From a virus, in the UHGV virus genome UHGV-0227205: 10,294 bases of DNA, one strand, 5' to 3'. Below the pieces are notes generated by a model, which was not told where the DNA came from, did no database searches, and saw nothing but the letters and a program-made list of their open reading frames with translations. Shown here piece by piece: positions 3 through 10,294 of this stretch; position 1 is the first letter of the stretch; each line of letters opens with the position of its first letter. The translations under genes were made by a program, and so were the position numbers.

Positions 3-218
3 GCCACCCCGTGTCAGCAGGGAGACTGCGTCATCCACCGGGCGCGTCAGGGACCAGGCTTTATTGCTCTGCTTGGTGCTGGCCCGGCATTCCAGGTCAT
101 AAAAGACAGTCTGACACTGGGGCTGAATGCGCTGACGTTAACTGATATCACTAAAAATGCCGCGTACGGCGTCGATATCGGCAGCCTGGTGCTGGAAATC
201 AATAATCCCGCAGCATAA
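3..218 (+). CDS. Hypothetical protein, C-terminal fragment (5' end outside window)
   Basis: Frame 3 is open from the first base of the window to TAA at 216-218 (71 codons, no in-frame stop; the other two plus frames hit stops at about 97 and 143). Same strand as the R-like gene and 23 bp upstream of it; an AGGAG-like RBS for R (227-231) follows its stop. No family recognised from the fragment (ends ...SLVLEINNPAA). In P2 synteny this position is the lysis-gene end of the operon, but the fragment does not look like an Rz/LysB coiled coil. Confidence 0.3.
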   Translation, partial: ATPCQQGDCVIHRARQGPGFIALLGAGPAFQVIKDSLTLGLNALTLTDITKNAAYGVDIGSLVLEINNPAA

Positions 219-241
219 GGAAGAGCAGGAGAGCAAAACAG

Positions 242-709
242 ATGCTTAAGACAAACAGTCTGCGAGAGTCCATGCTTCATGGGTGTCGGTGGTGCCAGGC
301 TAATCCCGAGAAATTCACCATTTTCGTGGAGAGCGGCAACATTGAAACGACCGGAGAAGCGCCCTCGTTTGTTTACCGCTATCAGATGGTGATGTTTGTC
401 ATGGATTACGCCGGAGAGCTGGACGACCTCACGCTGCCGCTGCTGGCGTGGTTATCCGAAAATCAGCCACAGTTGTTGCTCAATCCGGAGCGTAATCAGG
501 ACATCAAATTTTCTGCCGTTATCAATGACGATGACAGCGCCGATCTCCTGTTTACGCTCCCCCTGCGGGAACGCGTTCGCATCACGCGCAACAGTCAGGG
601 CACACCGCAGGCAGAACACCTGCCGGAGCCAAAACCCCGTCTGCCTTCTTCCGAAGGCGACTGGTCGCATGTATTCCAGGATGTGACGTGGGGTGAAAGC
701 GATGGATAA
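242..709 (+). CDS. R: P2 gpR-like tail completion protein
   Basis: 155-aa ORF with ATG at 242 preceded by an AGGAG-like RBS. N-terminus MLKTNSLRE... and length resemble P2 gpR as I recall it. Sits immediately upstream of S-V-W-J-I-H in P2 gene order. Stop overlaps the next start (ATGGATAA). Confidence 0.7.
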   Translation: MLKTNSLRESMLHGCRWCQANPEKFTIFVESGNIETTGEAPSFVYRYQMVMFVMDYAGELDDLTLPLLAWLSENQPQLLLNPERNQDIKFSAVINDDDSADLLFTLPLRERVRITRNSQGTPQAEHLPEPKPRLPSSEGDWSHVFQDVTWGESDG

Positions 710-1337
710 GGCATTCACCCGCGTGGATGAAACCTTTGAGGCTATCCGCGACAGCCTGAATCAGCAGGCCATCAATAACATCGCCAGAAAGCTGGCACAG
801 GATTTACGTCGCGCCCAGCAGGCACGTATCCGGTCACAAAAAGCGCCGGACGGGACCGAATGGACACCACGCAGACGCCGCGTAACCCGGATACAGGAGC
901 GCATTCGCTTTATCTGGAATAACGAAGCACGCACGCTGAAAAACTGGCATCACGACACAGGGAAATACGGGCGAACCATTACCGGGTGGGATGAGGATAA
1001 AAACAATATCCGCACGTTTTACCGGGATGACATCGACCGTTTTCTGGAAATACGCACCCGGCGCATCAACCAGGACAGCACAAAGCGCGTCCCCATGTTC
1101 GTAAAACTGCGCACCGCCCGCTACCTGAAAGCCCGTGCAGATGCCTCCGGTGTGACGGTGGGTTACAGCGGCGTGGCCGCACGTATTGCACGCGTTCATC
1201 AGTTCGGTGAGCGCGATCAGGTTGCGCCGGGCATTTTCACCGATTACCCGGTACGTGAGCTGTTGGGTATCAGCCAGGCAGATGAGCGCCTGATTTATAA
1301 CACGGTGCTGGGCCGGATTGCGGAGGCTGTACGGTGA
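702..1337 (+). CDS. S: P2 gpS-like tail completion / virion morphogenesis protein
   Basis: ORF in P2-syntenic position between R and V. ATG at 702 overlaps the R stop; an alternative GTG start at 693 is possible. Basic, Arg-rich protein. Family assignment is by synteny and size rather than recalled motifs. Confidence 0.65.
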   Translation: MDKAFTRVDETFEAIRDSLNQQAINNIARKLAQDLRRAQQARIRSQKAPDGTEWTPRRRRVTRIQERIRFIWNNEARTLKNWHHDTGKYGRTITGWDEDKNNIRTFYRDDIDRFLEIRTRRINQDSTKRVPMFVKLRTARYLKARADASGVTVGYSGVAARIARVHQFGERDQVAPGIFTDYPVRELLGISQADERLIYNTVLGRIAEAVR

Positions 1338-1915
1338 GCGCAGAACTCATGCGACTGCTGAGCAACATCATCCGCACCGGGATCATCTCTGAAGTTGATG
1401 AGAAGTCCTGGCGCGTGCGCGTTCGCAGCGGCGAACTGGAAACAGGCTGGTTGCGCTGGAACACCACGCGCGCGGGAGCCTTCAATGTGTGGCTGCCGCC
1501 ATCACCAGGCGAACAGGTGGTAATTGCCTGCATTGGCGGCAACCCGGAAACCGCCATGATAATTGGCAGCCTGTGGAGTGATGCCAGTCCGGCCCCCGGC
1601 AAAAGCCTGAAAGAAATCGTGGTCAGCGCGCCGGATGGCGCGGTGTTCCGCTACGACGCAGACGCTGGCGCACTGAGCGCCAGCGGCATGAAAACAGCCA
1701 CCCTGCAGGCATCCGTCAGCGTGACACTGGATACGCCCGTCGTGGAATGCACAAACCTTCTGAGAACGGCGACGCTTGACGTCACAAAAGAGGGAAAGAT
1801 GAGCGGCAATATCACGCACAGCGGCGGCAATTTCACCTCAAACGGCATTACCGTGCATACGCATAAGCACGGTGGCGTTAAAGGTGGCAGCGATTCGACA
1901 GGAGGCCCGCAGTGA
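1334..1915 (+). CDS. V: Baseplate assembly protein V (spike/hub), P2 gpV-like
   Basis: 193-aa ORF; GTG start at 1334 overlaps the S stop (GTGA), with an alternative ATG at 1349. Motifs ...IRTGIISEVDE..., GWLRW, PSPGEQVVI, C-terminal GITVHTHKHGG and Gly-rich tail match P2 gpV as recalled. Syntenic with W-J-I. Confidence 0.9.
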   Translation: MSAELMRLLSNIIRTGIISEVDEKSWRVRVRSGELETGWLRWNTTRAGAFNVWLPPSPGEQVVIACIGGNPETAMIIGSLWSDASPAPGKSLKEIVVSAPDGAVFRYDADAGALSASGMKTATLQASVSVTLDTPVVECTNLLRTATLDVTKEGKMSGNITHSGGNFTSNGITVHTHKHGGVKGGSDSTGGPQ

Positions 1916-2262
1916 CAACCCGCTACACAGGAATGAACCCGGACGGGACGGGAAACCTGAACGATATGGAGCACCTGAAACAGTCAGTCAGGGACATCCT
2001 GATCACCCCGCTGGCAAGCCGGGTTATGCGACGGGAATATGGCAGCCTTGTGCCTGATTTGATTGACGAACCCATGAATAACACCACGCGTCTGCAATGC
2101 ATGAGTGCTGCCGTGATTGCGCTGACACGATGGGAACCCCGCATTGCCCTGGACGCCATCGACGTTGTCTGGAAGGCAGGAGGCCGCGCCGGGGTGACGC
2201 TGTCGGGCACTGTCATGCAGACCATGCAGAATGTTGAATTAACCATCACGCTGAGAGAGTAA
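1912..2262 (+). CDS. W: Baseplate wedge protein W (GPW/gp25 family), P2 gpW-like
   Basis: 116-aa ORF; GTG start overlaps the V stop (GTGA). MTTRYTGMN..., VMRREYGSL and WEPRI motifs match P2 gpW as recalled. Confidence 0.9.
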   Translation: MTTRYTGMNPDGTGNLNDMEHLKQSVRDILITPLASRVMRREYGSLVPDLIDEPMNNTTRLQCMSAAVIALTRWEPRIALDAIDVVWKAGGRAGVTLSGTVMQTMQNVELTITLRE

Positions 2263-2265
2263 ATC

Positions 2266-3162
2266 ATGCCTGCTGTTGATCTTTCCCAGTTACCGGAACC
2301 CGCCATCATCGCGGAGCCTGATTTTGAGGCAATTCTGGCTGACACAAAGGCCATGATGATTGCGTCCTATCCTGCCGAACAGCGTGAAGCCGTCTCCGCC
2401 GCGCTGGAGCTGGAATCAGAACCCCTGAACGTTATCGCTCAAACCATGTCGTTTCGTGAAATGCTGTTACGCCAGCGGGTTAACGAGGGCGCACGCGCCT
2501 GCATGTTAAGCCACGGTTCAGGGACAAACCTGGACAACCTCGCGGGCAATATGAACACAAAGCGCCTGGTTATCACTCCGGCAACGGATACCACCGACGC
2601 GGTGATGGAGAGCGACACCTCGCTGAGACTGCGGGCGCAGCGGGCGTATGACGGCCTGAGTGTTGCTGGCCCGTCAGGTGCATACGAGTATTTTGCACGC
2701 AGCGCCAGCGGTCTGGTGCGTGATGCGCGGGCCATCAGCCCGTCTCCGGCCTGTGTGACGGTTTCCATTCTGTCCACTGAAGGCGACGGCACAGCAACGG
2801 AGGCGTTGCTTAATACCGTTCGCGCCGTTCTGAATGCAGAGGATACCCGCCCGGTGGCCGACCGACTGACCGTACAGAGCGCCAGCATCGTGACATGGCG
2901 GCTGAATGCAAAACTGTACTTTTACCCCGGCCCGGAATCCGAACCTATTCTGGCTGCGGCTGAATCGTCGTTCAGGAAGTGGCTGGCTGAGCAGGGGCTT
3001 ATTGGTCAGGACGTGGCGTTGTCAGCCATTGCTGCCGCACTTCATGTGCACGGCGTGCAACGCGTGGAGATAATCGAACCCACACAGAATATGGCCATCA
3101 GCGACATACAGGCGGCGCGCTGTGAGTCATTCACCATCAGCGAAGGTGGGCGTAATGAGTAA
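2266..3162 (+). CDS. J: Baseplate assembly protein J (gp6-like), P2 gpJ-like
   Basis: 298-aa ORF starting 3 bp after the W stop. MPAVDLSQLPEP..., LESEPL, RQRVNE, SPSPACVT, RPVADRLTVQSA, YFYPGPESEPI and LHVHGVQRVEI match P2 gpJ as recalled. Stop overlaps the I start (ATGAGTAA). Confidence 0.9.
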   Translation: MPAVDLSQLPEPAIIAEPDFEAILADTKAMMIASYPAEQREAVSAALELESEPLNVIAQTMSFREMLLRQRVNEGARACMLSHGSGTNLDNLAGNMNTKRLVITPATDTTDAVMESDTSLRLRAQRAYDGLSVAGPSGAYEYFARSASGLVRDARAISPSPACVTVSILSTEGDGTATEALLNTVRAVLNAEDTRPVADRLTVQSASIVTWRLNAKLYFYPGPESEPILAAAESSFRKWLAEQGLIGQDVALSAIAAALHVHGVQRVEIIEPTQNMAISDIQAARCESFTISEGGRNE

Positions 3163-3685
3163 TTCACTGTTACCGCCATCAGCCAGCAATTTCATGCGTT
3201 GCGCCGAAGCTGTCGGAGCGCGCATTACAGACATCCCGGTAGACCTCAACACGCTGTGGTCACCGGACACCTGCCCGGTGCATCTGCTGCCTTATCTCGC
3301 CTGGGCATTTTCCGTTGACCGCTGGGATCGCAACTGGCCGGAAGAGACAAAGCGACAGGTGATTCGTGATGCATGGCTGATACACCGACACAAAGGGACC
3401 ATCAGCGCACTGCGCCGGGCCATTGAGCCGCTGGGATACCTCATTCGCGTGTCTGAGTGGTGGGAGTTCGGCGGAGAACCGGGAACATTTACCGTTGAAG
3501 TCGGCACGCTGGACAGTGGCGTGACGGAGGAAATGTATCTGGAAATGGAGCGGTTGATTGCTGATGCCCGCCCGGTCAGCCGCCACATGACAGGGCTGAA
3601 TATCATTCAGGAGATTCAGGGAGATATTTTCGCGGCGGCAGCAACTTACGACGGCGAAGTCATTACCATTTATCCGGACGATTAA
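3155..3685 (+). CDS. I: Baseplate/tail protein I, P2 gpI-like
   Basis: ATG at 3155 overlapping the J stop; the longer track ORF from 3122 is probably an upstream extension. Motifs LWSPDTCPVHLLPYLAWAFSVDRWD, HRHKGTISALRRAIEPLGYLI, EMERLIADARP and YDGEVITIYP match P2 gpI as recalled. Confidence 0.9.
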   Translation: MSNSLLPPSASNFMRCAEAVGARITDIPVDLNTLWSPDTCPVHLLPYLAWAFSVDRWDRNWPEETKRQVIRDAWLIHRHKGTISALRRAIEPLGYLIRVSEWWEFGGEPGTFTVEVGTLDSGVTEEMYLEMERLIADARPVSRHMTGLNIIQEIQGDIFAAAATYDGEVITIYPDD

Positions 3686-3687
3686 GC

Positions 3688-5031
3688 ATGAGTACCACAA
3701 CACGTAAATTTAAAACCGTTATCACCGATACGGGTGCCAAAAAATTAGCTCAGGCAGCCGCGCCAGATGGTAAGCCTGTCCGCCTGACTCATATGGCCGT
3801 GGGCGACGGTGGCGGCACGTTGCCCACACCAGACAGTAAGCAGACCCGTCTGGTGCATGAGGTGTGGCGACATACTGTTAATCGCGTCATCCTGGACGCA
3901 ACACATCAGAACCGCATTATTGCGGAGCTGGTTATTCCTCCTGAAACGGGCGGATTCTGGATCCGGGAAATTGGTGTATTTGATGAGCACGGCGATTTAA
4001 TCGCGGTGGGCAATACTGCCGAAAGTTACAAGCCAGCCGTTGCCGAAGGGTCCGGTCGTGCACAAACATTTCGCACCATTCTGACCGTATCCAGCACTGC
4101 CACCGTGGTGCTTACCGTGGATAACACCATGGTGATGGCCACAGTGGATTACGTGGATGACAAACTGAAAGAGCATGAACAGTCACGACGTCACCCGGAC
4201 GCCTCGCTGACCGCAAAAGGCTTTGTTCAACTCAGTAGCGCCACTAACAGCGTGTCTGAAACGCAGGCTGCAACGCCGAAAGCAGTAAAGGCCGCGTATG
4301 ACCTTGCTAACGGTAAATATACTGCGCAGGATGCCAGCACGACGCGAAAAGGCCTTGTCCAGCTCAGTAGCGCCACCAACAGCACGTCTGAAACGCAGGC
4401 TGCAACGCCGAAAGCAGTAAAGGCCGCGTATGACCTTGCTAACGCAAAATATACCGCTCAGGACGCCACGACGGCACAAAAAGGGATAGTCCAGCTCAGT
4501 AGTGCCACCAACAGCACGTCTGAAACACTGGCCGCGACATCGAAAGCTGTTAAGGCGGTAATGGATGAAACGAACAAGAAAGCGCCCTTAAATAGTCCTG
4601 CACTGACCGGAACGCCAACAACACCAACTGCGCGACAGGGAACGAATAATACCCAAATCGCAAGCACGGCTTATGTTATGGCTGCGATCGCTGCCCTCGT
4701 GGACTCGTCGCCTGACGCACTGAATACGCTGAACGAGCTGGCTGCGGCGTTGGGCAACGACCCGAATTTTGCGACCACCATGACTAGCGCGCTTGCGGGT
4801 AAGCAACCGAAAGATGCCACCCTGACGGCGCTGGCCGGGCTTGCTACTGCGGCAGACAGGTTTCCGTATTTTACGGGGAATGATGTTGCCAGTCTGGCAA
4901 CCCTGACAAAAGTTGGGCGGGATATTCTTGCGAAATCGACCGTTGCCGCCGTTATCGAATACCTCGGTTTACAGGAAACGGTAAACAAGGCTGGTAACGC
5001 CGTTCAGCGTTCCGGCGCATTACCGCCTTAA
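3688..5031 (+). CDS. H: Tail fibre protein H, P2 gpH-like, apparently 3'-truncated (constant N-terminal part only; possible pseudogene)
   Basis: 447-aa ORF starting 3 bp after the I stop. N-terminus (..TVITDTGAKKLAQA..MAVGDGGG..EVWRH..IIAELVIPPE..GGFW.RE.G..D..G.LIAV.N.AESYKP..AEGSGR..) matches the P2 H attachment domain. It then has three tandem repeats and a ...GIVQLSSATNSTSETLAAT.KAVKAVMDETNKKAPL...ALNTLNELAAALGNDP...VIEYLGLQETVNKAGNAVQ segment shared with lambda Stf. Recognisable sequence stops at 5007, then 7 codons (RSGALPP) and TAA. P2 H is about 670 aa as I recall, so the distal receptor-binding part appears to be missing, and no G gene follows. Confidence 0.85.
   Translation: MSTTTRKFKTVITDTGAKKLAQAAAPDGKPVRLTHMAVGDGGGTLPTPDSKQTRLVHEVWRHTVNRVILDATHQNRIIAELVIPPETGGFWIREIGVFDEHGDLIAVGNTAESYKPAVAEGSGRAQTFRTILTVSSTATVVLTVDNTMVMATVDYVDDKLKEHEQSRRHPDASLTAKGFVQLSSATNSVSETQAATPKAVKAAYDLANGKYTAQDASTTRKGLVQLSSATNSTSETQAATPKAVKAAYDLANAKYTAQDATTAQKGIVQLSSATNSTSETLAATSKAVKAVMDETNKKAPLNSPALTGTPTTPTARQGTNNTQIASTAYVMAAIAALVDSSPDALNTLNELAAALGNDPNFATTMTSALAGKQPKDATLTALAGLATAADRFPYFTGNDVASLATLTKVGRDILAKSTVAAVIEYLGLQETVNKAGNAVQRSGALPP
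4198..4563 (+). repeat. Tandem direct repeat, 132-bp (44-codon) unit, 2 full copies plus 1 partial, in frame within H
   Basis: Copy 1 at 4198-4329 (DASLTAKGFVQLSSATNSVSETQAATPKAVKAAYDLANGKYTAQ), copy 2 at 4330-4461 (DASTTRKGLVQLSSATNSTSETQAATPKAVKAAYDLANAKYTAQ), copy 3 at 4462-4563 (DATTAQKGIVQLSSATNSTSETLAATSKAVKAVM, then diverges into DETNKKAP). Copies are near-identical at nucleotide level by eye. Confidence 0.9.
4480..4563 (+). repeat. Inverted repeat, left arm (H repeat core KGIVQLSSATNSTSETLAATSKAVKAVM)
   Basis: 84 nt at 4480-4563 align codon for codon with the reverse complement of 5018-5101 (stf KGIVQLSSATNSTSESLAATPKAVKAVM). I count 70/84 identical, with the last 15 nt (GTTAAGGCGGTAATG) identical. 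Confidence 0.8.
4952..4977. other. Candidate Din-family (Gin/Cin/Pin/Hin-type) invertase crossover site, orphan
   Basis: TTATCGAATACCTCGGTTTACAGGAA at 4952-4977. As I recall, Mu gixL is TTCCTGTAAACCGAGGTTTTGGATAA; its reverse complement TTATCCAAAACCTCGGTTTACAGGAA differs from the window at 2 of 26 positions. The site is 12-bp half-sites around a central TC dinucleotide and lies inside the H codons VIEYLGLQE. No second site in inverted orientation and no invertase gene were found in the window by eye. Confidence 0.6.
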
Positions 5032-6496
5032 CCGCTTTTGGCGTTGCCGCCAGTGACTCGGAAGTGCTGTTGGTCGCACTGCTGAGCTGTACTATCCCCT
5101 TTTTCGTCGTGCTCGCATCCTCAAGCGCCACGGCGGATGCAATATCCTCTGCCCGTTTTGCCGCTGTCTCGGCGCGCGTTGCCGCGGATTCCGCCGTACT
5201 TTTGCTCTGAGCTGCCGCCGTCGCACTGCCAGCTGCCTCTGTCGCCTTCGTGGATGCCGTCGTGGCGCTGCCCTTTGCTGCTGACGCCTGTCTGGTCGCC
5301 TCATCTTTTGAAGCAGACGCAGATGATGCCGATGACGCCGCTGAACTGGCTGACGATGCGGCTGCCGCCTTAGAGGAAGCAGCATTGTCTGCTGAAGTCT
5401 TTGCATTTGTTTCAGAGGTTTTTGCTGCAGAAGCAGACCTCGCTGCTGCAGTGGCTTGCTCAGTGGCTTTGCCAGCCTTCGTTGTGGCTGTTGAAGCGGA
5501 TGATGCGGCGCTTTCTGCCGATTTTCCGGCGGCGGTGGCACTGGCTGAGGCCTGCCCGGCACTTGTTGACGCGGCACTGGCAGATAATGCAGCCGCTGTT
5601 TTTGAACCTGCCGCAGCTGAGGCGCTCTGTCCCGCTGCTGTTTCAGAAGACTTAGCGTTCGTCTCGGACGTTTTTGCCGCCTTCGCGGAATTTCCTGCCG
5701 CCGTTGCCGAGGAAGCTGCACTACTGGCACTTGATGATGCATTCGTTTCTGAAGATTTCGCTGCCTCTTTTGAGGCCGCCGCACCCCGTGCCGAGGTGGC
5801 AGCTTCTGACGCCTTCGTGGTCGCTGTGGATGCAGAAGTGGCTGCCGATTTTTGTGATGCTGCGGCATTCGTTTCTGACGTTTTCGCGGCACTGGCGCTG
5901 GTAGCTGCCGCGCTTTTTGATGACTCTGCAGCAGCAGCACTTTTTGCTGCTTCACGGGCCTTTGTCGATGCCGTTCCTGCGCTGGAAGACGCTGACTGAG
6001 CCGACGACGCGGCCTGTCCGGCTGACGTGCTGGCGGCACGTGATGAGGCTGCAGCATCGGTTGCATGAGTTGCCGCCTCGCTGGCTGATGCACTGGCATC
6101 GCTGGCTGATTTTTTCGCGGCTGCCGTATTCTGTGCAACCGCGGAGGCGTTACGTGACACCTCTTCTACCATCTGCTCAAAGCGGCGCAGTGCCTCCGGT
6201 CGTACATCATCCTCCGTCATGGCACCGAGAAAATCATTCAGCGTACCTGGTCTGGAACCTTCATAGACGGTAATGGTCCCGGCATGTGAAGGCGGAAAAC
6301 CTTCAACCAGCAGGGTGACGCTGTACTGACCATGCTCAACATCCATGCTGTAACGTCCGGCTTCATCCGGATTTTCAGAGGCCACCGTGTTCACCACCAC
6401 CGTGCTGCTGGTTCGTCTGGCCTTCAGCACAATGGTGCAGTTCTGTACTGGTTTTCCTGTGCCATCTTTAAGCACGCCAGAAATTTTTACTGTCAT
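4952..6496 (-). CDS. stf: Side tail fibre protein, lambda Stf-like, apparently 3'-truncated (N-terminal and shaft part only; possible pseudogene)
   Basis: 514-aa minus-strand ORF with ATG at 6494-6496 and a GGTGGA RBS. N-terminus MTVKISGVLKDGTGKPVQNCTIVLKARR...YSMDVEHGQYSV...GFPPSHAGTITVYE...GTLNDFL is almost identical to lambda Stf as recalled. It continues into the Ala/Ser-rich shaft with KTSETNA repeats and then ...AVALEDASTTKKGIVQLSSATNSTSESLAATPKAVKAVM. The last 21 codons (RRNAERRYQPCLPFPVNRGIR) are the antisense of the H 3' end, not Stf sequence. Lambda Stf is about 770 aa as I recall; the C-terminal receptor-binding part and tfa are absent. Confidence 0.85.
   Translation of the reverse strand: MTVKISGVLKDGTGKPVQNCTIVLKARRTSSTVVVNTVASENPDEAGRYSMDVEHGQYSVTLLVEGFPPSHAGTITVYEGSRPGTLNDFLGAMTEDDVRPEALRRFEQMVEEVSRNASAVAQNTAAAKKSASDASASASEAATHATDAAASSRAASTSAGQAASSAQSASSSAGTASTKAREAAKSAAAAESSKSAAATSASAAKTSETNAAASQKSAATSASTATTKASEAATSARGAAASKEAAKSSETNASSSASSAASSATAAGNSAKAAKTSETNAKSSETAAGQSASAAAGSKTAAALSASAASTSAGQASASATAAGKSAESAASSASTATTKAGKATEQATAAARSASAAKTSETNAKTSADNAASSKAAAASSASSAASSASSASASKDEATRQASAAKGSATTASTKATEAAGSATAAAQSKSTAESAATRAETAAKRAEDIASAVALEDASTTKKGIVQLSSATNSTSESLAATPKAVKAVMRRNAERRYQPCLPFPVNRGIR
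5018..5101 (-). repeat. Inverted repeat, right arm (stf KGIVQLSSATNSTSESLAATPKAVKAVM)
   Basis: Reverse complement of 5018-5101 matches 4480-4563 at about 83% identity. The arm begins exactly where recognisable stf coding sequence ends (ATG codon at 5018-5020 on the minus strand). Confidence 0.8.
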
Positions 6497-6510
6497 ACTT
6501 TTCCACCAAT

Positions 6511-6544
6511 AAAAAAAGCCCGCAGCAGTGACGCCACGGGCTTC
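6511..6544 (-). terminator. Putative intrinsic terminator downstream of lom
   Basis: On the minus-strand transcript: stem AGCCCG (revcomp of 6537-6542), 14-nt loop, stem CGGGCT (revcomp of 6517-6522), then a run of 7 T (revcomp of the A-run 6511-6517). Stem is short with a large loop, so strength is uncertain. The stf RBS follows directly. Confidence 0.5.
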
Positions 6545-6647
6545 AGGACAGTGTAACTTTACGTTTCCTCAAACGCAGTTCACCCCATAAGGTGGATGAA
6601 CCTGCGTATCATAACAATATTTACAGAAGATAAATCGGCGTCTGTTG

Positions 6648-7247
6648 TCAGAAACGGTATCCGATACCAACAATAAATGCATCCGTTCGCCAGTCGCCAC
6701 TACCGGAACCTTCATAAGCAAGGTCAATGGTCACGGATTCGGTCGGGTTAAACTGCACGCCAGCCCCCCACGCCAGAGACGTGTTGCTGTGGCGACCGTC
6801 ATCACTTCCGGTCAGCACATCGTGCTTTTTCCCCTTGTTGTCAGTTACGCGAAGATAATCCCCGGAGAAAGTCGACACACGGCTGTAAGCCACACCCGCC
6901 ATCGCATACGCGCTGAACCATTCATTCACGCGCACAGACGGCCCCGCCATTACGCTGAACCAGCGGTTACGAACGGAATCTTCATGCCAGCGGGTATCGC
7001 TGTAACGGGTCAGCTGGCGATTCTTGTCTCCTGCATAGCTGAACGACGTCTCCAGCCCCAGTGTGTCCGTAAACTCATAACGGTATTTCACGTTAATCCC
7101 GTTCAGATCATCACTGCCGGGAACGTTCGTCGAGGCATGAAGATAGCCCGCGCTCAGCGTGGACTGATGTTCAGACGCCCATGCAGGCGCACCGGATACG
7201 GCCAGACAGATGGCTGCGGACAAAATGGCGGCATAAAGTTTACGCAT
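6648..7247 (-). CDS. lom: Outer membrane beta-barrel protein Lom (Ail/Lom/PagC/Rck/OmpX family)
   Basis: 199-aa ORF with ATG at 7245-7247 and a GAGAGG RBS. Signal peptide MRKLYAAILSAAICLAVSGAPAWA with AWA cleavage motif. C-terminus ...LAYEGSGSGDWRTDAFIVGIGYRF closely matches lambda Lom as recalled and ends in an aromatic residue typical of OM beta-barrels. Sits in the lambda J-lom-stf position. Confidence 0.9.
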   Translation of the reverse strand: MRKLYAAILSAAICLAVSGAPAWASEHQSTLSAGYLHASTNVPGSDDLNGINVKYRYEFTDTLGLETSFSYAGDKNRQLTRYSDTRWHEDSVRNRWFSVMAGPSVRVNEWFSAYAMAGVAYSRVSTFSGDYLRVTDNKGKKHDVLTGSDDGRHSNTSLAWGAGVQFNPTESVTIDLAYEGSGSGDWRTDAFIVGIGYRF

Positions 7248-7268
7248 AATTACCTCTCGCTTTTCTGC

Positions 7269-7296
7269 AATAAAAAAGGCGTCATTCCTGACGCCC
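7269..7296 (-). terminator. Putative intrinsic terminator between J and lom
   Basis: On the minus-strand transcript: GGCGTCA-GGAA-TGACGCC hairpin (7-bp GC-rich stem, 4-nt loop; plus coordinates 7277-7294) followed by TTTTTTATT (revcomp of 7268-7276). Lies 22 bp after the J stop and before the lom RBS. Confidence 0.7.
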
Positions 7297-7317
7297 TTTA
7301 TTGGGGTTATAAATATT

Positions 7318-10294
7318 TCAACGAATACTGATGCCGGAAGCGGCTTTTTTGGTCACAATCACCGTACAGTCGGTGATATTGCCTGCCCCCTGATTGCCTT
7401 TCTGGAAAATCTTAAACTCCAGAGTGACGCTTCCCCTGCCACTCGGCATATCAATAACTGCACTGTAACTACCGGGAATGGCCCCTTTAGTTTCTCTGGA
7501 TGCGATTAATACGCCGTTTTTGCGAACTTCAAAACCATAACCCGTGTATCGCGTGCCTCCTGGGTTATTTCCGCTCCCCGGATCGTCATACGCTATACCG
7601 TTAAAAATAATGGGCGGAATAATAATCTGGCGGTCAAAGTTATGATCATCGCTGATGGTGACTGTAACCGTACCGTTTGGTGTTTCCGTGTTACCCCACG
7701 TACCGACTTTTTTCGGGAAGGCTTTTGATACAGCTTTAACGAAATCTCCTCTGACCTGGGTCGCCTCCAGCATGCCCTTAATCGTACAGTTCTGGTTAAT
7801 CGTGACATTGTTGAGCGTTCCTGAGTTCGCATTCACACTGCCACTGATATCCACATTTTTCGCCGTCAGTCTCCCGTCTGATGTCAGGGAAAATGCCGGA
7901 GGATTACCGCCGCTGGTAATGGTGGGGGCCGTCAGGCGTTTCAGGAACACTTCATTCATGAATATCTGATCGCCCTGACCAACAAACATCGGCTTTGTGT
8001 TGCCATTCGCAGGATTAATCATCGCAATCCTGTCTGCCGCCAGCAGCACCTGACTCTGCATTCCTGCTGGCGTATTCTCAATACCGGCACCGATACCCGC
8101 AATATAAAGGCGTCCGTCCTGCATCTGCTGCAGTTTCACGGCCCACATGCTGTTCAGGTTATTATTTGTATCAACCTGAACTTTCTGTATCTGCTGGATT
8201 GCCGCACTCTGATTTTCCAGTTTTTTATTGACGGTCTGCGTGATTTCATTGCTGACATTCGTAATGGACGTCCTGATTTCAGCCAGGTCCGGCGCAAGCT
8301 GACCGTTATCAATCTGCGTCCACAGCTCCTGGGCCAGATGTGTTTTCCCGATTTCTCCTTTGAAAAAATCCAGGTAACCTTCCGCATCATCGCTCGCCCG
8401 ACCGACAGCCTCCACGAATGCCGATTTGCCAACAGTATTCACACTGCGGATATAAAAATAATAATCATGGCCCGGTTTGATATTGATACTGGCAGCTATC
8501 CAGTACAGCGCCGAGCCAAGATAGCGGGCTGCGGTTTCAACCTGCCTGATATCCGCAATCCGCTTTTCCGAGAACCAGAACTCAAACTGTACCGTCGGGT
8601 CATAAACGGCAAGATGTGGCGTTGCGGTTATCTGAAAATAGCCCGGCGTCAGCTCAATCCGCGACGGTGCTGCCGGTGCGGCAATCCGGAAGGTGGTGGT
8701 GGCAGGTTCACCCTGCTGGCCATAGCTGTTTATCGCCCGCACCGTCAGGGTGTATTCCCCGAGCGGCAGGCCGCTGAAACGGTGCTCCGTGTCTGCGGTG
8801 ATGGCGGTGGTCACCAGTCTGGCATCCGTTCCCTTACCACTGGTCAGGCGCAGACTGAAGCGCACACCCTTCACCACCCGCGGCGTGTCCCATTTCGCCT
8901 GCGCCAGATACTGGCCGTCAGCTGCGCTCACCTCCACCGTCAGGTGCTGCACTGCCGGTGGGATGACGCTGTTCAGGGAACCTGACTGCGGCTCAAAGCG
9001 GGCACCGTTATCCACGATGGCTTCTTTTTCCGGTACGTGCTGCACCGCCGTGATGGCAAAGGTGCCGTCCGTGTTTTCCCGGATGGAGACACAGCGGAAC
9101 AGGCGACGGCGCAGTGACGGCAGGGAGAGTCCCCACACCCCGTATGTCTCCACACCATCAGGCAGGGTACTGACCTGTATCCGGTCCGGCGCGGGGTGTG
9201 CGGTGATGTCCACACTCACCGGCTTACCGCTGCCGTTAATCAGGTTCACCGCCGATGTACCTGTCTCCGGCAGGGTAACCTCACGGTCCAGCGTCAGGGT
9301 GCGGGTGGCAGCATCAATGGACAGGACACGTCCGCCGGTCAGGGTCCCGGCATAGTCATTATCACAGATTTCAATAATGTCACCGGGTGTGTGCCGCAGC
9401 CCCTGAGACCCGAGCGTGAAATCCACCGTCTGCGTTTCCAGCAGTTCGGTCTTTATCACCCACAGTCCGGCACGGTGGGCCTGACCGCGGCTGGTACAGC
9501 CGAACGCGTCCATCTTCAGCAGGTTGCGTCCGTAGCGCAGTATGGCTTCCGGGTCTTCCACCAGTTCCGTGGAGGTCTGCCAGCCGTTCTGCGGGTCGGT
9601 GTAATTCACCTCCACCGCCGTGTGCCGGTCCTTCAGGGCACTGAAGCTGTAGCGGAATCCCACGCCGTTATCATCCACCACCACATCGCTGTTGGTGTAC
9701 GGCCACACCACATCCGACGGGCGGTCCTGAACGAACGTCAGCGTCTGACCGTTCCATACCGGCATACAGCGCATCGCAGAGCAGAAATCACTGAGAACGT
9801 CCCACGCCTTACGCTGTTGTGCCAGGTACGCATTAAAGGTCATCCGCGGCTCGGTCCCCCCGAAACCATCCGGGACCGTCTGGTCGCAGTACTGCCCGAT
9901 GGCATACAGCGCCCACTTGTCCACATCCGCCGCCCCCAGACGTTTTCCCATGCCGTAGCGCGGGTGAGTCAGCATGTCCCACAGACACCAGGCCGGGTTG
10001 TTGCTGTATGCCGGTTTCAGACTGCCGTCCCAGATACCACTATACGTGCGTTTTTCCGGGTCATAGTTTGACGGCACCTGGATGATGCGACCGCGGATAT
10101 GGTAGTTCACCGTCATCTGCTGGCCGCCGAACTGCTCCGCATCCACCTGCAGCCCCACAATGGCCGTGTTCGGGTAGCACTGTTTCACATCGATGATTTC
10201 GGTGTATGACGACCACAGCGTCTTATTCTGCAGCTGGTCCGTGGTGCTGTCCGCCGTCTCCCTGACCATCCGGATGTTAAAGGGCCGGGGAGGC
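7318..10294 (-). CDS. J: Host specificity / tail tip protein J, lambda J-like (central tail fibre); 5' end outside window
   Basis: Minus-strand frame open from the window end (translation ...[44 protein letters not shown]...) to the stop at 7318-7320, at least 992 codons. Long stretches ([191 protein letters not shown]) match lambda J as recalled. The ATG at 10267-10269 is internal, not the start; lambda J is about 1130 aa. Confidence 0.92.

What the first reader, a model, noticed from the sequence alone, without database searches (positions are those of the whole stretch)
4952..4977. Orphan Gin/Cin/Pin-type invertase crossover site inside H, 40 bp before the breakpoint
TTATCGAATACCTCGGTTTACAGGAA matches, at 24 of 26 positions, the reverse complement of the Mu gix crossover site as I remember it, with the characteristic 12-bp half-sites around a central dinucleotide. 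In Mu, P1, e14 and p15B such sites mark the boundary between the constant and the invertible variable part of the tail-fibre gene, and P2-type H genes are known to share sequence with those fibre genes. Here the site sits at H codons 422-430, and H ends 18 codons later. So H retains only a constant-part-like region and the rearrangement breakpoint is close to, but not at, the crossover dinucleotide (4964-4965). This could be a relic of a former fibre inversion switch, or a target for an invertase encoded elsewhere. The minus-strand stf stop codon (4952-4954) lies inside the same site.
Basis: partly seen in the sequence, partly recalled or inferred. Interest (0 to 1): 0.6.

Follow-up and report, generated by a model that had tools for sequence, protein, structure and literature searches.

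The report
Known phage tail-fibre invertase crossover site
The 26-bp element is a real recombination site for a Gin/Pin-type DNA invertase, already published for E. coli ST131 prophages. It looks orphaned here most likely because this stretch is stitched together from three prophages, probably by a faulty assembly.

Summary
TTATCGAATACCTCGGTTTACAGGAA lies at 4952-4977 and occurs once in the window. It matches published Mu gix at 24/26. It matches bixL of the Shigella boydii PinB system at 26/26, and the published 5' crossover site of prophage Phi4 in E. coli ST131 EC958 at 26/26. In intact relatives this site opens a 3.1-kb invertible tail-fibre segment that has an inverted partner site and a truncated invertase gene. 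The P2-like prophage Phi1 of the same genomes encodes an intact Gin-like invertase. A junction I built by recombining the two sites in silico is present at 100% identity in 142 complete genomes, and the unflipped form in 237. The site is therefore functional and already known.

The "orphan inside H" reading is only partly right. SNPs show that 4566/4673-5017, including the site, is the lambdoid stf (Phi4) copy, not P2-like H. The join at 5017|5018 is blunt, inverted, 53 bp from the crossover dinucleotide, and absent from every collection searched. The window holds a second blunt inverted join (77|78) and three switches between prophage paralogues inside 77-107-bp identical stretches. This pattern fits a short-read misassembly, as documented for ST131 NA114, better than it fits biology.

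The parts
4952..4977 (+). 26-bp Din-family (Gin/Pin-type) crossover site. Outer half-site 4952-4963, core dinucleotide TC 4964-4965, inner half-site 4966-4977. In the fibre reading frame it encodes V-I-E-Y-L-G-L-Q-E.
   Evidence: It matches bixL at 26/26 and gix at 24/26, and the EC958 Phi4_5prime site at 26/26. It is identical to L001 8787-8812.
3688..5031 (+). Chimeric, truncated tail-fibre ORF of 447 aa. It has the P2-like (Phi1) H sequence up to 4565, an ambiguous stretch at 4566-4672, the Phi4 stf-type sequence up to 5017, and then 14 nt of antisense stf that supply the stop.
   Evidence: translation; Phage_tail_fib N-terminal domain and Phage_fiber_2 repeats; SNP map.
4566..5017 (+). Segment 100% identical to the constant-part end plus the first 40 nt of the variable part of lambdoid Phi4 stf (L001 8401-8852). 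It carries the crossover site.
5017..5018 (.). Blunt head-to-head join with no microhomology between the fibre sequence (equivalent to L001 8852) and the reverse complement of stf ending at L001 8398. It lies 53 bp from the crossover dinucleotide.
   Evidence: It is absent from 5,426 complete E. coli genomes, GTDB representatives, IMG/VR and JGI metagenomes. NA114 has a contig join within 0-2 nt of the same stf position.
4952..6496 (-). Chimeric minus-strand ORF of 514 aa. It has 493 codons of the Phi4 stf N-terminal part (6496-5018) and then 21 antisense-H codons that end at the TAA inside the site.
   Evidence: (phage_tail_N).
4460..4563 (+). Left arm of a 104-nt, 80% inverted repeat whose right arm is 5018-5121. 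The arms are the Phage_fiber_2 repeats of H and stf, brought into inverted orientation by the join.
   Evidence: I1.

Best explanation
The element is a bona fide crossover site of the Din family of serine DNA invertases (Gin/Cin/Pin/PinB/Hin).

Native context (shown). The site is the 5' site of the invertible tail-fibre segment of the lambdoid ST131 prophage called Phi4 in EC958. It lies inside the coding sequence at the boundary between the constant stf part and the exchangeable C-terminal part. An invertase dimer binds each of two inverted 26-bp sites. A Fis-bound enhancer next to the 3' site assembles the complex, strands are exchanged at the 2-bp core, and the 3.1-kb segment flips. Flipping swaps the receptor-binding end of the fibre and its assembly chaperone. 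Phi4's own invertase gene is truncated.

Inference. The intact Gin-like invertase of the co-resident P2-like prophage Phi1 probably acts in trans. This was also proposed by Forde et al. 2014.

In this window. The site is cut off from its partner and from any invertase by a blunt inverted join 40 bp downstream. I judge that join to be a repeat-induced short-read assembly chimera with concatenated contigs (about 75%) rather than a biological rearrangement. As written in the window the site can do nothing. In the real genome it is most likely an ordinary, active Phi4 site.
For: Site identity:
- 26/26 to bixL and 24/26 to gix.
- 26/26 to the EC958 Phi4_5prime site, for which PacBio reads showed both orientations.

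Architecture in relatives:
- L001 reads stf, site, tfa, inverted tfa', inverted partial fibre, 3' site TTCTCGTAAACCGAGGTTTTAGATAA, and a 60-codon invertase remnant.
- L002 has the same module with an intact 199-aa recombinase. That protein has Resolvase and HTH_7 domains and is 85% identical to D108 Gin.

Inversion in nature:
- The junction predicted by exchange at the core dinucleotide is present at 100% over 951 bp in 142 genomes. The unflipped form is in 237.
- Sister isolates differ: 2/0 and 4/0 are flipped, 4/1-1 and 4/4 are unflipped.
- Active inversion in P2-like prophages of EPEC is published.

Origin of the copy in the window:
- 4566-5017 shows 0 mismatches to Phi4 stf. Phi1 H shows 20 mismatches and then diverges.

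Assembly chimera:
- There are two blunt inverted joins (77|78 and 5017|5018) and three paralogue switches inside identical stretches of 107, 94 and 77 bp.
- Every piece is 100% identical to a prophage of ST131 genomes, yet no join or hybrid is found in any collection searched.
- The piece that starts at 78 begins exactly 60 nt inside a 447-bp exact repeat, as a k=61 unitig would.
- The window skips the ISEc12 that interrupts Phi4 lom and continues in another prophage's lom.
- NA114, a documented ST131 misassembly, has a blunt contig join within 0-2 nt of the same stf position.
Against: - I could not identify the source record or see reads, so the artefact reading is circumstantial.
- The window is not NA114 itself. 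NA114 joins that stf end to a different partner, and its P2-like region is only 97% identical to EC958.
- The ends at 5017 and 5018 do not fit the simple k=61 unitig arithmetic that fits the end at 78.
- Gene conversion between co-resident prophages is real biology and could produce the three homologous switches.
- Trans action of the Phi1 invertase on Phi4 sites is inferred, not shown.
Confidence: 0.8

Rival explanations
1. The join is real. An illegitimate recombination in an ST131-like strain fused a P2-like H/stf hybrid head-to-head to the N-terminal part of lambdoid stf. This left a genuinely orphan crossover site that could still pair with distant sites if an invertase is present.
For: The sequence on both sides is clean and 100% identical to real prophages. 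Prophage tail modules lying head-to-head do occur in complete genomes, for example strain 4/0. Recombination among prophage fibre genes is common.
Against: The join is found in none of 5,426 complete genomes or in the other collections. A second blunt inverted join and three paralogue switches lie within the same 10 kb. In ST131 genomes H and stf lie about 525 kb apart, in orientations that give this junction only through circularisation or tandem duplication. A documented misassembly has a contig end at the same stf position.
Confidence: 0.17
2. The breakpoint was made by the invertase itself, by recombination at the site or at secondary (quasi) sites.
For: Cin is known to use quasi-sites (cited). 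An active Gin-like invertase is present in related genomes.
Against: The join is 53 bp from the core dinucleotide. The parental sequences at L001 8398|8399 and 8852|8853 bear no resemblance to the Din consensus and share no dinucleotide. The H-to-stf switch lies 290-400 bp upstream of the site, inside a 107-bp identical stretch, so it is homologous and not site-specific. Exchange between inverted sites would join constant to variable parts in the same direction, not head-to-head.
Confidence: 0.01
3. The site is a silent evolutionary relic, as in phage P2 H, in a genome that has no Din invertase.
For: P2 H carries a 25/26 copy with no invertase or inverted segment downstream. The window holds no invertase.
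Against: The copy in the window is identical, including 450 bp of flank, to the Phi4 site that flips in nature. Its Phi1 neighbour genes are 100% identical to a prophage that encodes an intact invertase.
Confidence: 0.02

Closest known systems
Phi4 5' crossover site of E. coli ST131 EC958 (Forde et al. 2014, PMC4134206, Table 3)
   Same: Identical at 26/26, with the same flanks (ccgccg upstream, ACGGTAAAC... downstream). It has the same position in a lambdoid stf gene, and it belongs to a 3,106-bp segment shown by PacBio reads to exist in both orientations.
   Different: In the window the sequence breaks off 40 bp after the site and continues as inverted stf. The partner site, both tfa genes and the invertase remnant are missing.
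bixL of the invertible B segment / PinB of Shigella boydii (sequence as listed in PMC3241671, Table 3)
   Same: Identical at 26/26. It has the same GA/TC core and belongs to the same family of tail-fibre switches.
   Different: The host element is different. I could not read the original record (D00660), so the flanks were not compared.
gix sites of the Mu/D108 G segment with Gin
   Same: 24/26 identity to Mu gix, the same core dinucleotide, and the same placement at the Sc/Sv boundary. Homology continues about 30 nt into the variable part. The Phi1 invertase is 85% identical to D108 Gin.
   Different: There are two substitutions in the outer half-site. The host genes are P2-like H and lambdoid stf rather than Mu S.
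Crossover-site-like sequence in phage P2 gene H
   Same: It sits at the homologous position in H, matches at 25/26, and encodes the same VIEYLGLQE peptide.
   Different: P2 has no invertase, no inverted alternative segment and no partner site, so there it is a true relic.
P segment / Pin of e14 and the pinR/pinQ modules of K-12 cryptic lambdoid prophages
   Same: These are lambdoid stf-tfa inversion modules driven by a Din invertase. Activity is documented by whole-genome sequencing.
   Different: The pix sites have an AA core and different half-sites.

Membership tests
Din-family DNA-invertase crossover site (gix/cix/pix/bix/hix) | [quoted passage not shown] | tested here: met
   The minus strand reads TTCCTGTAAACC GA GGTATTCGATAA. 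The left half and the core fit the consensus. The right half has 2 deviations, one of which (TAA) is shared with gix, hix and bix. The match is 26/26 to bixL and 24/26 to gix.
Din-family DNA-invertase crossover site (gix/cix/pix/bix/hix) | Located in frame at the junction of the constant and exchangeable C-terminal parts of a tail-fibre gene | tested here: met
   The alignment of the window, Phi4 stf, Phi1 H, P2 H and D108 S diverges right after the site. The annotation of L001 and L002 agrees.
Din-family DNA-invertase crossover site (gix/cix/pix/bix/hix) | A partner site in inverted orientation a few kb away on the same molecule | tested here: not met
   None is present in the 10.3-kb window at up to 3 mismatches or by core pattern. 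Intact relatives have one: L001 11868-11893 and L002 around 10700-10725. The rest of the source genome could not be searched.
Din-family DNA-invertase crossover site (gix/cix/pix/bix/hix) | A Din-type serine invertase gene (Resolvase + HTH_7), with its enhancer, adjacent to the 3' site or supplied in trans | tested here: not met
   No resolvase domain occurs in any major ORF of the window. Relatives have an intact Gin-like gene in Phi1 and a 60-codon remnant in Phi4. The enhancer itself was not tested.
Din-family DNA-invertase crossover site (gix/cix/pix/bix/hix) | Recombination actually occurs at the core dinucleotide, so both orientations are found | tested here: met
   This holds for the identical site in relatives. 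The in-silico flipped junction is found at 100% over 951 bp in 142 genomes, against 237 unflipped. PacBio evidence exists for EC958. It cannot be tested for the window copy without reads.
Invertase-generated rearrangement junction | Junction at the core dinucleotide of a (quasi-)site, with the same dinucleotide in both parents | tested here: not met
   The join at 5017|5018 is 53 bp from the core. The parental breakpoints have no site-like sequence and no shared dinucleotide.

The most novel reading that the evidence does not exclude
The head-to-head fusion of a P2-like H/stf hybrid with lambdoid stf is real in some ST131-like strain. Exchange among three co-resident prophages has then stranded an active-type invertase site. 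With the Phi1 invertase in trans, that site could pair with distant prophage sites and drive large chromosomal inversions.
Probability: 0.12. Interest if true: 0.4.

Novelty: already known. Interest (0 to 1): 0.1.

Why it matters
The site itself adds nothing new. The same 26 bp, its partner, its invertible segment and the likely trans-acting invertase were described for ST131 strain EC958 in 2014, and the sequence equals bixL, which was already listed among the classical Din sites.

The practical value is a caution. Prophage tail-fibre modules share exact repeats of 77-450 bp and flip in culture, so short-read assemblies can thread between copies and produce "orphan" sites, truncated fibres and apparent breakpoints. 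If the join were real, it would be a modest example of inter-prophage rearrangement in a pandemic clone.

Tried and rejected
- Exact-junction scans of GTDB genome representatives, IMG/VR and JGI metagenomes found nothing.
- Exact-protein look-ups of both chimeric ORFs found nothing, so the source stays unidentified.
- A literature search for the literal gix sequence found nothing. The 1992 P2 H/G paper is not held. What I say about it and about Sandmeier 1994 beyond the citations in PMC4134206 rests on my own knowledge.
- I tested whether the window is a simple in-place or planted inversion of 78-5017. Un-inverting it does not restore any natural adjacency (reasoning).
- I tested an invertase quasi-site origin of both blunt joins. 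No common motif or Din-like sequence appears at the four parental breakpoints.
- I tested whether inverted repeats flank the putative 373-bp and 454-bp inverted pieces. Only chance-level 10-16-nt matches turned up.
- I tested whether the window is NA114. NA114 has the same stf contig end but a different partner and a more divergent P2-like region, so it is not.
- k=61 unitig arithmetic fits the end at 78 but does not fit the ends at 5017 and 5018 with the loci I hold.

Full report
**1. The observation**

Positions 4952-4977 read TTATCGAATACCTCGGTTTACAGGAA. The 26-mer occurs once in the window even when 3 mismatches are allowed, against 0 expected in 200 dinucleotide-preserving shuffles. No other AAACCNNGGTTT-type core is present.

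It lies in the plus-strand ORF 3688-5031 (447 aa), starting at the second base of codon 422 and ending with codon 430. In that frame it encodes VIEYLGLQE. The ORF stops 17 codons later. The TAA at 4952-4954 is the stop of the minus-strand ORF 4952-6496.

**2. Check against published sites**

Table 3 of PMC3241671 lists these sites:
- gixL = gixR = TTCCTGTAAACC GA GGTTTTGGATAA

Table 3 of Forde et al. 2014 (PMC4134206) lists crossover sites in E. coli ST131 EC958. The site "Phi4_5prime ccgccgTTATCGAATACCTC GGTTTACAGGAA" is identical to the window, including the six preceding bases.

That paper reports the following:
- PacBio reads carried the 3,106-bp Phi4 segment in both orientations.
- The Phi4 invertase gene is severely truncated.
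- The P2-like prophage Phi1, which has near-identical sites, probably supplies the invertase in trans.

**3. What the surroundings are**

| Window span | Content | Source |
|---|---|---|
| 242-3685 | P2-type R, S, V, W, J, I genes | |
| 3688-5031 | Fibre ORF with the P2 fibre N-terminal domain and three Phage_fiber_2 repeats | |
| 4952-6496 (-) | ORF with a lambdoid "prophage tail fibre N-terminal" domain | |
| 6648-7247 (-) | lom | |
| 7318-10269 (-) | J | |

No ORF has a resolvase domain.

The closest relatives are ST131 genomes. I fetched both prophages of strain 4/1-1.
- The lambdoid prophage (L001) reads J, lom::ISEc12, stf, tfa, inverted tfa', an inverted partial fibre gene, and a 60-codon recombinase pseudogene.
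- The P2-like prophage (L002) reads I, H, tfa, inverted tfa', an inverted partial fibre gene, and an intact 199-aa recombinase.

The intact recombinase has Resolvase and HTH_7 domains and is 85% identical to D108 Gin.

Each module has a left site inside the fibre gene and an inverted right site next to the recombinase gene:

| Module | Left site | Right site, as read on the locus + strand |
|---|---|---|
| L001 | 8787-8812, identical to the window | TTCTCGTAAACCGAGGTTTTAGATAA |
| L002 | TTATCGAATACCTCGGTTTACGAGAA | TTCTCGTAAACCGAGGTTTTAAATAA |

An alignment with P2 H and D108 S shows all copies agreeing through the site and splitting into two variable-part families right after it. P2 H has a 25/26 copy, but H is followed only by G, a terminator and fun(Z), with no invertase.

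**4. Is the site used?**

I built the junction expected if L001's two sites exchange at the core dinucleotide. It consists of 701 bp of stf up to the core, followed by the reverse complement of 250 bp inside the right site.
- This flipped junction occurs at 100% identity over all 951 bp in 142 complete genomes.
- The unflipped arrangement occurs in 237.
- Isolates 2/0 and 4/0 are flipped, and 4/1-1 and 4/4 are unflipped.

Together with the PacBio evidence and the published inversion in P2-like prophages of EPEC, this shows that the exact 26-mer is a working crossover site.

The Hin enhancer is a 65-bp element about 100 bp from one hix site and also works at a distance (PMC3798978). In Phi4 that distance from the 3' site falls inside the retained 60 codons of the invertase remnant. 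That this explains continued flipping is my inference.

**5. Which copy is in the window, and what is the breakpoint?**

Base-by-base comparison gives this map:

| Window span | Relation to ST131 prophages |
|---|---|
| 78-4672 | Phi1 (L002), with a single mismatch at 1030 |
| 4673-4947 | 20 mismatches to Phi1 H; Phi1 H then diverges completely from 4973 |
| 4566-5017 | 100% identical to Phi4 stf (L001 8401-8852) |
| 5018-6872 | Reverse complement of L001 8398-6544 |

From this map:
- The switch from H to stf lies in the 107-bp stretch 4566-4672 that is identical in both genes. That is 290-400 bp upstream of the core, so the switch is homologous and not site-specific.
- The site in the window is therefore the Phi4 copy in its unflipped state.
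- The join at 5017|5018 is blunt with no microhomology.
- Neither parental breakpoint resembles a Din site.
- The minus-strand ORF is 493 stf codons followed by 21 antisense codons. This is why its stop falls inside the site.

**6. Is the join biological?**

No complete E. coli genome of 5,426 spans it. It is also absent from GTDB representatives, IMG/VR and JGI metagenomes. Neither chimeric protein is on record. The H/stf hybrid itself is unique, with a best match of 96.9%.

The window contains further joins seen nowhere else:
- A second blunt inverted join lies at 77|78. Positions 1-78 are the reverse complement of L002 2783-2706, and position 78 onwards is L002 3079 onwards.
- Two more switches between paralogous prophages occur. 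Positions 6732-8037 are 100% identical to the att-lambda prophage of ST131 ZH193, flanked by Phi4-type sequence. The switches lie in identical stretches of 94 bp and 77 bp.
- The first of these switches sits where real Phi4 lom is interrupted by ISEc12.

The piece that starts at 78 begins exactly 60 nt inside a 447-bp stretch that is identical between the Phi1 DUF6645 gene and its Phi4-region paralogue. A k=61 de Bruijn unitig would begin there.

Forde et al. showed that the ST131 "complete" genome NA114 is a short-read assembly with prophage fragments concatenated in wrong places. Their BLAST table shows a blunt NA114 join at EC958 1484397, within 0-2 nt of the window's stf break. There it is joined to an unrelated region.

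The window is not NA114, because the partner differs and NA114's P2-like region is only 97% identical to EC958. But the same kind of artefact is the simplest account of five unique joins in 10 kb. I put this at about 75%. A real rearrangement remains possible at roughly 15-20%.

**7. Verdict**

The element is a genuine, functional-type Din crossover site. It is already described, down to the identical sequence and its likely trans-acting invertase.

The "orphan relic inside H" reading is partly right for the window as written. But the site belongs to the lambdoid stf copy, the breakpoint is unrelated to invertase chemistry, and the orphan state most likely reflects a chimeric assembly. Interest is low.

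Noticed in passing
window 77-78: A second blunt inverted join. Positions 1-78 are the reverse complement of L002 2783-2706 inside the Phi1 DUF6645 gene, and equally of its Phi4-region paralogue L007 2028-2105. Position 78 onwards continues at L002 3079. No complete E. coli genome spans it.
   Followed up: partly
window 6732-8037: The lom N-terminal part and the J C-terminal part are 100% identical to a different ST131 prophage (att-lambda prophage of ZH193, L006). They are embedded in Phi4-type sequence, and the switches lie in identical stretches 6732-6825 and 7961-8037. Real Phi4 lom carries ISEc12 at the first switch.
   Followed up: partly
window 4566-4672: This 107-bp stretch is identical between Phi1 H and Phi4 stf, and the window changes from one gene to the other within it. 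The resulting hybrid is not found in any complete genome (best match 96.9%).
   Followed up: yes
window 78-137 (L002 3079-3138): The P2-like piece begins exactly 60 nt inside a 447-bp exact repeat shared by the Phi1 DUF6645 gene and a Phi4-region SASA-family esterase gene. This is compatible with a k=61 unitig end.
   Followed up: partly
window 4460-4563 and 5018-5121: A 104-nt, 80% inverted repeat made of the Phage_fiber_2 repeats of H and stf. It is flush with the join and encloses the 454-bp site-bearing segment.
   Followed up: partly
L005 7167-11072 (E. coli 4/0, NZ_CP023849.1): A different P2-like tail module lies head-to-head with a second myovirus tail module, with one tfa gene and two N-terminally truncated fibre pseudogenes between them. 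This looks like a natural convergent arrangement of fibre genes.
   Followed up: no
L001 11948-12127: The truncated Phi4 invertase gene keeps its first 60 codons. That is the region about 100 bp from the 3' site where Hin/Gin-type Fis enhancers lie, which may be why the segment still flips with an invertase supplied in trans.
   Followed up: no
NA114 CP002797 952576|952577 (Dataset S1 of PMC4134206): NA114 has a blunt contig join at EC958 coordinate 1484397 in stf, within 0-2 nt of the window's break. There it is joined to EC958 2284880.
   Followed up: partly
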